DNA from: the human T2T-CHM13v2.0 reference genome, Homo sapiens
DNA: 64,000 bases
Assembly (NCBI RefSeq): GCF_009914755.1
Contig: NC_060928.1
Direction: 5' to 3' (one strand)
In this document: positions 22,204-25,200 of the stretch, piece by piece
How the letters are laid out: every line of letters starts with the position of its first letter
How positions within the stretch are numbered: the first letter of the stretch is position 1
The notes under the pieces: generated by a model
Seen by the model: only the letters and a program-made list of their open reading frames with translations
Told to the model about the DNA's origin: nothing
Databases searched by the model: none
Program-made: the position numbers and the translations under genes

Positions 22204-25200
22204 CTGGAAGTCCTAGCTGAGCATTCAAGAGAAAGAAATAAAAGGTATCCAAATAGGAAAAGAGAAATTCAAACTATCTCTCTTGCTTACAATATGATTC
22301 TTAAAGACTCTTCCAAAAGGATCCTGAAACTAATAAACAATGTCAGGAAAGTTTCAGGATATCCAATCATTTTACAAAAATCAGTAGCATTTCTATAAAC
22401 CAATAATGTTCAAGCTGACAGCCAAATCAAGAACACAATCCCATTCACGACAGCCGCAAAATAAAATAAAATAAAGTAAAATAAAATACCTAGGAATACA
22501 TGTAACCAAAGAGGTGAAAGATCTCTACAAGGAGAACTACAAGACACTGCTGAAAGAATTCACAGATGACAGAAACATATGGAAAAACTTTCCATGCCCA
22601 TGGTTTGGAAGAATCAATATCATTAAAATAGCTATACTGCCCAAAGCAATTTACAGATTCAATGTTATTTCTATCAAACTATCACCATAATTTTTCACAG
22701 AACTAGAAAAAATTAGCCAAAGCAACTCTAAGCAAAAAGCACAAAGCCTGTAGCATCACATTACCCAACTTCAAATTATACTGTAAGGCTGCAGTAACCA
22801 AAATAGTATGGTACTATACAAGAACAGACACATAGACCAATGGAACAGAATAGAGAGCTCAGAAATAAAGCTGTACACCTACAGCCATCTGATATTTAAC
22901 AAAGGTGACAAAAATAAGCAATGGGAAAGGGACTCTCTATTCAGTAAAGGTGCAGGATAGCTGGCTAACCACATACAGAAGAATGAAACTAGACCCCCTA
23001 CCTTTTATCATATACAAAAATTAATTCAAGATGGATGAAAGATTTAAATGTAAGACCTCAAACTATAAGAATCCTAGAAGAGGTGAAAAGCGACGGCGCA
23101 GCACGGTGCAGCGCAGCTCCTGCTCGCCTTTCCCCTCGCTGGGCGAGAGGTGTCTACGGAGCACCCGCTGCCGCCGCCGCTACCGCTACCGCCACCGCCA
23201 CCGCCACCGCCACCGCCGCCGGCTGCTGTCTCTATGGCGAGGAGGAGGAGGAGGAGCGCGAGCTCAGCGACACAAGTACATAAATAAAGGATAAAATATT
23301 TTATGAAACAAATCTTCAATCAAGTATAACATTTTGATGCTTGGCATCTAGACTCCCTTGTGCCCTCACTATGCCAGCGGCGACTGTAGATCATAGCCAA
23401 AGAATTTGTGAAGTTTGGGCTTGCAACTTGGATGAAGAGATGAAGAAAATTCGTCAGGTTATCCGAAAATATAATTACGTTGCTATGGACACGAGTTTCC
23501 AGCTGTGGTTGCAAAACCCATTGGAGAATTCAGGAGCAATGCTGATTATCAATACCAACTATTGCGGTGTAATGTAGACTTGTTAAAGATAATTCAGCTA
23601 GGGCTGACATTTATGAATGAGCAAGGAGAATACCCTCCAGGAACTTCAACTTGGCAGTTTAATTTTAAATTTAATTTGATGTAAGTGGGAAATAACTGTA
23701 TAACCCAGACTTTTTTTTTTCTTTAATCTTAGGAATTGATTTTCCTCAAGTATGGTGACATGCTAAGTGAATTTGGTGGTTATCCTGGAAATATATAAAA
23801 CGTAACATTTCAAAAGCATGGTTTTCTTTTTTACTATGGGACCAAAAAAAATACTTTGATGTTAAAGATGTTATATTTAAAATATGACTGCAACTTTTTT
23901 TGTATTTGGAAAGCTTTGGGTATTGAAAGTACTTCTGATAGAAAAAATTATCTTACCACATTAGTTTTACTTTCAAAAATTTTGTGTGCAATTTGAAATA
24001 TAGCCTTTTATAATATTTATCCTTATTGTAAAGATTTTTATTGCAGTCATATTCCAGTTTATGAGTAGATTACATGTCAAATGCAGTAAGACATTTTCTG
24101 GAACCTTGGGTACGTTTTCCTTTCAAGTCAGTATTACATAATCATTATGTTGCCACTTCAGCCCACAAAAGCTCTCTTAATTTACATATAGGAGAACTAG
24201 TAGTATCCTTTAACCTGGTGTTTATCATATGTCAGAATCTGCATTCTAACTCAAGCCCTGGGTCTCCACCCAGTTTCCTTAGTTATAGTATTTCTATATT
24301 ATTAGTAGAAGTAGTCTTGATAGCTAAGGGAAGTTTTAGAGTGTTTTTGGAGAAGGGCAGATTATTTGCAAACTGTAAGTTGGGTAAATAAAATATTTAA
24401 TACATTCTAATTAAAAAAACAAAAGAATCCTAGAAGAAAACCTAGGAAACACCATATTGGACATTAGCCTAGGGAAAAAACTTGTGACTAAGTCCTTGAA
24501 AACAATTGCAACAAAAACAAAAATTGACAAGTGGGATGCAATTAAACTAAAGAGCTTCTGCACAGCCAAAGAAACTATCAGCAGAGTAAACAGATAACCT
24601 ACAGAATGGGAGGAAATACTCACAGACTATGTGTCAGATAAAGGTCTAATATTCAGACTCTATAAGGAACTTAAATAATTGAACAAGGAAAAAACAAACA
24701 ATCCCAGTTAAAAATGGGTGGAATACATGAACAGACACTTCTCAAAAAGAGACAAAAAGAGACATAAAAGTGGCCAACAGACATATGAAAAAATGCTCCA
24801 CACCATTAATCATCAGAGAAATGCAAATCAAAACCATAATGAGATATCATCTCATACCAGTCAGGATAGCTACTATTAAAAAGTCAAAAAGCAACAGATG
24901 CTGGTGAGGCTGTGAAGAAAAGAGAAAGCTTATACACTGTTGGTGGGAATGTAAATTAGTTAGGCCACCGTAGAAAGCATTTTGAAGATTTCTCAAGGAA
25001 CTTAAAATTTGACTCGGGAATCCTATTACTGGGTATATATCAAAAAAATAAATAAATTGTTCTAGCAAAAAGACACATGCACTCATATGTTTATCACAGC
25101 ACTATTCACAATAGCAAAGACATGGAATCAACCTAGGTGCTCATCAACAGTGGATTGGATAAAGAAACTGTGATACATATACACCATGGAATACTACACA

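What the first reader, a model, noticed from the sequence alone, without database searches (positions are those of the whole stretch)
23082..24437. CNOT7 retrocopy preserves an intronic-polyadenylation isoform encoding a 104-aa truncated deadenylase
Seen: coding similarity is intronless from ATG 23371 to 23680, then stops exactly at a GTAAGT donor (23681-23686). About 730 bp of AT-rich sequence follows, then AATAAA, an A-tail 20 nt later and a perfect 15-bp TSD. Reading into the donor gives an immediate stop (TAA at 23682-23684). Inference: the template was a CNOT7 mRNA with upstream introns spliced but cleaved and polyadenylated within the next intron, abundant enough in germline or embryo to be retrotransposed. 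Knowledge (recalled): the parent isoform would end at T104. It would keep DEDD residues D40/E42 and the CNOT6/6L-contacting region around C67/L71, but lose D161/D230 and the CNOT1-binding region. It could therefore be catalytically dead, a decoy, or an expression-attenuation product.
Basis: partly seen in the sequence, partly recalled or inferred. Interest (0 to 1): 0.72.

Follow-up and report, generated by a model that had tools for sequence, protein, structure and literature searches.

The report
Dead CNOT7 retrocopy from intron-terminated mRNA
This is a broken, reverse-transcribed copy of the CNOT7 deadenylase gene, made from a short messenger RNA that ended inside an intron; it is a tidy fossil of that minor transcript but otherwise an ordinary pseudogene.

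Summary
Window 23082-24422 (+) is a 1341-bp L1-mediated retrocopy of CNOT7, whose parent lies on the minus strand of chr8. It sits inside an old L1 between perfect 15-bp target-site duplications.

The copy holds exons 1-3 with introns 1 and 2 removed. It then runs straight through the exon-3 donor (GTAAGT) into the first 721 nt of the 5.6-kb parental intron 3.

It ends 20 nt after an AATAAA that is also present in the parent. The parent has no A-run at that point, although the same intron has runs of 14-19 A elsewhere. Internal priming and a chimera are therefore very unlikely. The template was an intronically polyadenylated (composite-terminal-exon) CNOT7 mRNA.

In the parent this transcript reads ...L103 T104 stop. 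That keeps D40/E42 but loses D161/H225/D230 and most of the NOT1 interface.

The copy itself is dead: a 1-bp deletion in codon 41 leaves a 68-aa ORF. It differs from the parent by about 3% in substitutions, which suggests an age of roughly 15 Myr or more.

I found no direct evidence that the site is used today, and none that the 104-aa product has a function. This is a new example of a known kind, of modest interest.

The parts
23067..23081 (+). Left target-site duplication, AAGAATCCTAGAAGA, part of the host L1
   Evidence: One search finds the repeat pair. One search shows that two paralogous L1 copies carry this 15-mer once, with both flanks contiguous.
23082..23275 (+). CNOT7 exon 1 (5' UTR) copy. 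The first G (23082) does not match the parent and may be cap-derived. The copy has 12 more bases than the parent in the GCC/ACC repeat.
   Evidence: chr8:17514266-17514450, minus strand; 6 substitutions in 176 aligned bases and one 12-base gap.
23276..23487 (+). CNOT7 exon 2 copy, with the start codon at 23371-23373. Intron 1 (about 1.4 kb) and intron 2 (about 1.8 kb) are absent.
   Evidence: chr8:17512632-17512848, 99%; 3 substitutions in 217; residues 1-39 identical to CNOT7 chain 4gmj_B.
23488..23680 (+). CNOT7 exon 3 copy (codons 40 to 104, first two bases). A 1-bp deletion in codon 41, after 23492, shifts the frame.
   Evidence: 4 substitutions in 193 plus a 1-base gap; 60 of 62 aligned residues identical to CNOT7 42-103; 68-aa ORF.
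23681..24412 (+). Copy of the first 721 nt of CNOT7 intron 3, acting as the 3' UTR of a composite terminal exon. Holds the unused donor GTAAGT (23681-23686), the stop TAA (23682-23684) and the poly(A) signal AATAAA (24387-24392).
   Evidence: apart from itself, the only genome match is chr8:17509868-17510588 (minus), 94% with gaps; full alignment; 22 substitutions in 712 and 8 gap events; a single AATAAA.
24413..24422 (+). Remnant of the poly(A) tail, AAAAAAACAA, not templated by the parent
   Evidence: the parent continues ACAGCAGGACC at this point.
24423..24437 (+). Right target-site duplication, AAGAATCCTAGAAGA, followed by the rest of the host L1

Best explanation
Window 23082-24422 is a dead processed pseudogene of CNOT7, made by LINE-1 target-primed reverse transcription and inserted into an older L1.

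Its template was a complete, capped, roughly 1.3-kb CNOT7 transcript. In that transcript introns 1 and 2 had been spliced out and the exon-3 donor had not been used. The RNA had been cleaved and polyadenylated about 720 nt into intron 3, 16-20 nt after an AATAAA. This is an intronic-polyadenylation isoform of the composite-terminal-exon type.

In the parent gene this isoform would encode CNOT7 residues 1-104 followed at once by a stop, with no new residues. The stop lies in the last exon, so the exon-junction rule for nonsense-mediated decay would not apply (inference).

The fragment has two of the five DEDDh active-site residues and lacks most of the NOT1 interface, so it cannot be an active deadenylase. 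The most likely reading (inference) is a low-level by-product of 3'-end processing, or at most a way of lowering full-length output. It was captured once because CNOT7 is well expressed in the germ line.

The copy itself has no function. It is frameshifted, carries no promoter of its own and is intergenic.

Shown: the anatomy, the parentage, the poly(A) signal in the parent and the lack of an A-run there. Inferred: germ-line expression, the age, and what the 104-aa product does.
For: **Parentage and splicing**
- Query 23082-23685 matches three separate chr8 blocks: 17514266-450, 17512632-848 and 17510584-783.
- The post-donor 732 nt match chr8:17509868-17510588, directly abutting the third block. 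This is the only non-self match in the genome.
- Exons 4-7 lie further downstream on chr8. They were mapped with the full-length chr1 retrocopy as a stand-in for the cDNA. Intron 3 is therefore 5619 nt and the longest intron of the gene.

**A true poly(A) site**
- The parent carries AATAAA 16 nt before the end of homology and continues ACAGCAGGACC, with T-rich and GT-rich stretches within 45 nt downstream.
- The intron has 4 AATAAA and 3 ATTAAA in 5619 nt. By my arithmetic, an end falling 10-30 nt after an AATAAA by chance has odds of about 1.5%.
- The intron holds runs of 19, 14 and 17 A elsewhere. Internal priming would be expected at those places, and the copy ends at none of them.

**L1 mechanism**
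- A perfect 15-bp target-site duplication.
- Two paralogous L1 copies show the empty-site arrangement.
- The left flank is highly repeated: 4528 first-look candidates, and all 40 scored matched.
- An A-rich tail follows the copy.
- The bottom-strand nick site reads TCTT/AT, close to the L1 endonuclease preference TTTT/AA. The preference is recalled.

**Coding content**
- Residues 1-39 are identical to PDB chain 4gmj_B, which spans the full 285 aa. 60 of the 62 aligned residues (CNOT7 42-103) are identical to the CNOT7 chains.
- The parent reads TTG ACG TAA across the donor.

**What the fragment lacks**
- D161, H225 and D230, and the NOT1 contacts A137, E138, M141, T142, L147, N171, I184, L187 and F188 (PMC3510486, passages).
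Against: - I found no direct present-day evidence for use of this site. CNOT7 does not occur in the readable supplements of four intronic-polyadenylation atlases (one file each could not be searched). A fifth atlas's supplement could not be opened.
- No paper in the library links CNOT7 to this isoform.
- The exon-3 donor has a perfect GTAAGT. It is not weaker than the other CNOT7 donors. Bound U1 would be expected to suppress a poly(A) site only 720 nt away (recalled principle), so usage is probably low.
- The tail is only 10 nt long and contains a C.
- One retrocopy is a single event and does not show that the isoform was abundant.
Confidence: 0.9

Rival explanations
1. The template was an unspliced or intron-3-retaining pre-mRNA, and the L1 reverse transcriptase primed internally on it. 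In that case no real intronic poly(A) site was used.
For: Intron-retaining nuclear RNAs exist. The tail in the copy is short, 10 nt with one C.
Against: The parent has no A-run at the end point. An AATAAA lies 16-20 nt upstream in both the parent and the copy. Three long genomic A-runs (14-19 A) in the same intron were not used. Introns 1 and 2 are cleanly removed.
Confidence: 0.03
2. The insert is a chimeric retrocopy. Reverse transcription began on a separate polyadenylated intronic RNA and then switched template to a spliced CNOT7 mRNA.
For: L1-mediated template switching is known (recalled).
Against: The junction falls exactly at the genomic exon-3/intron-3 boundary, with no base lost or gained. 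That is what one contiguous RNA gives and would be a remarkable coincidence for a switch.
Confidence: 0.02
3. The intronic-polyadenylation isoform is a regulated, functional product. Either CNOT7(1-104) acts as a decoy for CNOT6/6L, or the site is used to tune the level of full-length CNOT7.
For: - The poly(A) signal has been kept in the human parent since the copy was made.
- The stop lies in the terminal exon, so the mRNA should be stable and translatable (inference).
- Another truncating CNOT7 isoform, CNOT7v2, has distinct functions (PMC5737658, passages).
- CNOT7, and mouse Cnot7, have annotated truncated transcripts that are quantified in cell lines. No coordinates are given for them (PMC11541570 supplements).
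Against: - There is no evidence for the protein.
- A 104-residue piece of a DEDD nuclease fold of about 260 residues would probably not fold on its own (inference).
- CNOT7 is absent from the readable supplements of the four atlases searched.
- Survival of one AATAAA over about 3% divergence is expected by chance.
Confidence: 0.07

Closest known systems
Full-length CNOT7 processed pseudogenes on chr1 (T2T 115,575,456-) and chrX (T2T 68,369,468-68,371,569)
   Same: Same parent and same L1-type retroposition. Exons 1-3 are spliced in the same way.
   Different: Those copies pass from exon 3 into exons 4-7 and do not contain the intron piece (one search gives only two matches). Only the chr4 copy ends in intron 3.
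Processed pseudogenes as records of alternative transcripts (Shemesh et al. [quoted passage not shown]
   Same: A retrocopy preserves a non-canonical isoform of its parent.
   Different: For that paper I saw only the title, in a reference list. The paper itself is not held and its content is recalled. Whether it lists CNOT7 is unknown.
Composite-terminal-exon intronic polyadenylation isoforms, such as soluble FLT1 and the thousands in published atlases (PMC5928244, PMC8559711; search listing and abstracts)
   Same: The donor is left unused, an intronic AATAAA is used, and the result is a C-terminally truncated ORF.
   Different: Here the evidence is a genomic fossil, not RNA data. CNOT7 was not found in the readable supplements of these atlases.
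CNOT7 variant 2 (NM_054026; PMC5737658, passages)
   Same: An alternative 3'-end isoform of the same gene that loses deadenylase activity.
   Different: Variant 2 uses an alternative 3'-terminal exon near the end of the gene and lacks only 41 C-terminal residues. The isoform recorded here ends after residue 104, in intron 3.

Membership tests
L1-mediated processed pseudogene (retrocopy) | Parental introns are absent and the copy lies at an unlinked locus | tested here: met
   Introns 1 and 2 (about 1.4 and 1.8 kb) are missing. The parent is on chr8 and the copy on chr4.
L1-mediated processed pseudogene (retrocopy) | Target-site duplications flank the insert | tested here: met
   A perfect 15-bp repeat lies exactly at both ends of homology. 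The same 15-mer is single-copy in two paralogous L1 elements.
L1-mediated processed pseudogene (retrocopy) | A 3' poly(A) tail that the parent locus does not template | tested here: met
   AAAAAAACAA at 24413-24422. The parent reads ACAGCAGGACC there. The tail is short, as expected for an old copy.
L1-mediated processed pseudogene (retrocopy) | Disabled coding frame (pseudogene rather than retrogene) | tested here: met
   A 1-bp deletion in codon 41, several stops in the original frame, and a 68-aa ORF.
Intronic polyadenylation isoform, composite terminal exon | Upstream introns are spliced, and the last exon continues without a break past its donor into the intron | tested here: met
   Exon 3 and the intron piece are contiguous in the parent, base for base.
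Intronic polyadenylation isoform, composite terminal exon | A canonical poly(A) signal 10-30 nt before the 3' end in the parental intron | tested here: met
   AATAAA lies 16 nt (parent) or 20 nt (copy) before the end.
Intronic polyadenylation isoform, composite terminal exon | No genomic A-run at the end point, which excludes internal priming | tested here: met
   The parent continues ACAGCAGGACCTC. A-runs of 14-19 lie elsewhere in the intron.
Intronic polyadenylation isoform, composite terminal exon | 3'-end reads or annotated transcripts at the site in living tissue | not testable with these tools
   No poly(A)-site database or RNA data is on hand. The literature and supplement searches found nothing specific. 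PMC11541570 lists annotated truncated CNOT7 transcripts without coordinates.
CAF1/DEDDh deadenylase (active enzyme) | All five catalytic residues present: D40, E42, D161, H225, D230 | tested here: not met
   Coding similarity ends at codon 104. The residue list is from PMC3510486. The Pfam CAF1 match scores only 16.6 bits against a cut-off of 24.2.

The most novel reading that the evidence does not exclude
The intron-3 poly(A) site of CNOT7 is a conserved, regulated switch, for example one that responds to U1 snRNP or CDK12 activity in germ cells. On this reading it both lowers full-length CNOT7 and yields a stable 104-residue N-terminal fragment. The fragment keeps the C67/L71 surface and titrates CNOT6/6L away from the CCR4-NOT complex. 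The chr4 retrocopy would then be the first sign that this isoform was abundant in the germ line of ape ancestors.
Probability: 0.06. Interest if true: 0.6.

Novelty: new member of a known kind. Interest (0 to 1): 0.3.

Why it matters
The copy shows, without any RNA data, that a CNOT7 transcript ending 720 nt into intron 3 existed in germ-line or early-embryo cells of an ape ancestor. The same poly(A) signal is still in the human gene. That gives a precise, cheap target for anyone studying premature polyadenylation of CCR4-NOT subunits: one coordinate to look up in 3'-end data.

Beyond that it is a routine pseudogene. It is not in the RefSeq table supplied for this window, so it may be worth adding to pseudogene annotation. 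It also matters for read mapping, because RNA or DNA reads from CNOT7 exons 1-3 and the start of intron 3 can mis-map to chr4.

Tried and rejected
- **Literature on the isoform.** 'CNOT7' with 'intronic polyadenylation' gave 1 paper, seen only as a search listing and not about this site by its title and abstract start. 'CNOT7' with 'telescripting' gave 0.
- **Literature on the pseudogene.** 'CNOT7P1/P2/P3' gave 0. 'CNOT7' with 'processed pseudogene' gave 4 papers, none on a CNOT7 pseudogene by title and abstract start (search listing only).
- **Literature on the general case.** 'Processed pseudogenes' with 'intronic polyadenylation' held 6 papers, 5 of them listed; none of those 5 looked to be about retrocopies of such isoforms by title and abstract start (search listing only).
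- **Supplement searches for CNOT7.** No occurrence in PMC5928244 (4 files), PMC8559711 (3 files, a fourth not searched), PMC11289681 (2 files) or PMC10960005 (11 files, one more not searched). The PMC10227441 supplement was too large to read. These files may have been cut when stored, so absence is weak evidence.
- **PMC11541570.** Lists CNOT7 and mouse Cnot7 among genes with annotated truncated transcripts, but gives no coordinates. It cannot be tied to intron 3.
- **Shemesh 2006.** Not held.
- **Weak-donor explanation.** Rejected. The exon-3 donor GAC|GTAAGT is as good as or better than the other CNOT7 donors.
- **The 105-aa ORF at 24074-24391.** It lies in intron-derived sequence and I take it for a chance ORF.
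- **Structure of the 104-residue fragment.** Not folded. It spans two exons in the parent and two frames in the copy, so no unaltered sequence encodes it.

Full report
**What is in the window**

The stretch 23082-24422 on the + strand is a 1341-bp insert. A perfect 15-bp direct repeat, AAGAATCCTAGAAGA, brackets it at 23067-23081 and 24423-24437.

The flanks belong to an old L1 element. The 202 bases to the left gave 4528 first-look candidates in the genome, and all 40 that were scored matched at 85-100%. I aligned two of the three non-self loci returned by that call, one on chr15 and one on chr8. Both carry the 15-mer once, with the window's left and right flanks contiguous around it. The repeat is therefore a true target-site duplication, and the pre-insertion site can be reconstructed.

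**Where the insert comes from**

A whole-genome search with 23082-23685 gave, besides itself, three separate blocks on the minus strand of chr8: 17514266-17514450, 17512632-17512848 and 17510584-17510783.

A search with the post-donor 732 nt (23681-24412) gave exactly one non-self match, chr8:17509868-17510588. That match abuts the third block.

I then used the full-length chr1 retrocopy as a stand-in for the cDNA. Exons 4-7 map further down at 17504808-969, 17502321-464, 17500023-123 and 17497328-8444.

The translated pieces identify the gene. Residues 1-39 are identical to CNOT7 chain 4gmj_B. 60 of the 62 aligned residues (CNOT7 42-103) are identical to the CNOT7 chains. The Pfam CAF1 match is below its cut-off (16.6 against 24.2 bits), as expected for so short a piece.

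The insert therefore consists of:
- exon 1: 23083-23275, preceded by one unmatched G at 23082
- exon 2: 23276-23487, with the ATG at 23371
- exon 3: 23488-23680
- the first 721 nt of intron 3: 23681-24412

The exon 1/2 and 2/3 joins are exact.

**The 3' end**

The base-by-base alignment runs without a break across the exon-3 donor. The parent reads TTTGAC|GTAAGTGGG and the copy TTTGAT|GTAAGTGGG.

The alignment stops at ...GGGTAAATAAAATAATACATTCTTATT. After that point the copy has AAAAAAACAA and then the target-site duplication. The parent continues ACAGCAGGACCTCAAATGACATTTTCTTCAACATTGTTTCATGG.

The parent thus has the AATAAA 16 nt before the end, and the copy has it 20 nt before the end because of a 4-base indel. 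The parent has no A-run there, and it has T-rich and GT-rich stretches within about 45 nt downstream.

In the 5619-nt intron there are 4 AATAAA and 3 ATTAAA. There are runs of 19, 14 and 17 A at about positions 1699, 2627 and 4467 (the positions printed there are 3 too low because my index started 3 bases inside the intron).

By my arithmetic, an end falling 10-30 nt after an AATAAA by chance has odds of about 1.5%. Internal priming would be expected at the long A-runs, and the copy ends at none of them.

Together with the clean removal of introns 1 and 2, this shows what the template was: a CNOT7 RNA that was spliced upstream, not spliced at the exon-3 donor, and cleaved and polyadenylated in intron 3. 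That is a composite-terminal-exon intronic-polyadenylation isoform.

**What the isoform would encode**

In the parent the reading frame across the donor is TTG ACG TAA. The product is CNOT7 1-104 with no added residues. The normal exon 4 begins G GAG GAC ATG, so codon 104 is ACG either way.

The active-site residues are D40, E42, D161, H225 and D230. The NOT1 interface uses helices alpha1 and alpha5-alpha7, with A137, E138, M141, T142, L147, N171, I184, L187 and F188 (PMC3510486, passages). The fragment therefore keeps two catalytic residues and loses the other three, along with nearly all of the NOT1 contacts.

C67 and L71 appear in a dominant-negative construct, D40A/E42/C67E/L71E (bioRxiv 10.1101/2025.05.08.652725, one passage). 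That these residues contact CNOT6/6L is recalled and was not shown here.

Whether the fragment folds, is stable or binds anything was not tested.

**State and age of the copy**

The copy is dead. One C of ACACCGAG is missing in codon 41, which leaves a 68-aa ORF and several stops in the original frame.

Differences from the parent:

| Part | Substitutions / aligned bases | Gaps |
|---|---|---|
| Exon 1 | 6 / 176 | one 12-base gap in the GCC/ACC repeat |
| Exon 2 | 3 / 217 | none |
| Exon 3 | 4 / 193 | one 1-base gap |
| Intron piece | 22 / 712 | 8 gap events, 23 bases |

The Kimura two-parameter distance for the intron piece is 0.032. The 94% identity counts gaps.

The 1.7% in exons 2-3, where mostly the copy's branch changes, is about half the 3.1% in the intron, where both branches change. 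That is what neutral decay of the copy predicts.

Pairwise 3% is close to the recalled human-orangutan neutral divergence. I infer an insertion roughly 15 Myr ago, or up to about 30 Myr with slower rates. This could not be checked because no other primate genome is on hand.

**Other copies**

The chr1 copy (90% identity) and the chrX copy (95%) carry exons 1-3 and go on into exons 4-7. Neither holds the intron piece. Short 3'-UTR fragments lie on chr11 and chr2.

Only one of at least three CNOT7 retrocopies that contain exons 1-3 records the intronic end. That fits a minor isoform of a gene that is well expressed in germ cells, but the counts are too small to give a rate.

**Is the site used today, and is it known?**

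I could not show present-day use. No paper in the library ties CNOT7 to this isoform. CNOT7 does not occur in the readable supplements of four atlases, and one further supplement could not be opened.

PMC11541570 lists CNOT7 with annotated truncated transcripts. Those labelled 'refseq' have a truncation ratio of about 0.12-0.18, and those labelled 'ucsc' about 0.61-0.74, in three breast-cancer lines. Mouse Cnot7 labelled 'ucsc' has a ratio of 0.13-0.28. The tables give no coordinates. This shows only that annotated short CNOT7 transcripts exist.

The one characterised alternative isoform, CNOT7v2, uses a different, 3'-terminal event (PMC5737658, passages).

The exon-3 donor is strong: GAC|GTAAGT, as good as or better than the other five donors. 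With the recalled rule that bound U1 suppresses nearby poly(A) sites, this argues for low usage.

**Verdict**

The functional ideas remain speculation.

Retrocopies that preserve alternative isoforms, and intronic polyadenylation itself, are both well-known kinds. This is a clean new example of them and not a new phenomenon.

The copy is not in the RefSeq table supplied for this window. Its status in GENCODE or in pseudogene databases could not be checked.

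Noticed in passing
L004 (G000 C1:115575456-115577555) and L005/L013 (G000 C23:68369468-68371569): Two further CNOT7 retrocopies, on chr1 (about 90% identity to this copy) and chrX (about 95%). 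Both carry exons 1-7 without the intron piece. The chrX locus also gave an odd separate 69-bp match to the 5' part of exon 2, at 68369276-68369344.
   Followed up: partly
L015 (G000 C11:110370318-110370635) and L016 (G000 C2:149980447-149980716): Short matches (93% and 84%) to the CNOT7 3' UTR. They are probably 5'-truncated retrocopies.
   Followed up: no
window 23165-23221: The GCC/ACC triplet repeat of the CNOT7 5' UTR is 12 bases longer in the retrocopy than in the parent.
   Followed up: partly
L025 (G000 C8:17504700-17510800), gene-sense intron positions about 780, 1699, 2627 and 4467: The parental intron 3 has a second AATAAA 80 nt past the one used. It also has three A-runs of 14-19 nt, which may be Alu tails. 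None of these is recorded by a retrocopy.
   Followed up: partly
window 24074-24391: A 105-aa ATG ORF inside the intron-derived 3' UTR part. The parent differs by several indels in this stretch, so I take it for a chance ORF.
   Followed up: partly
L010 (G000 C3:184100418-184100536) and L020 (G000 C5:155405696-155405827): Matches at 73% to CNOT7 exons. The chr5 match is probably the paralogue CNOT8 (name recalled). The chr3 match was not identified.
   Followed up: no
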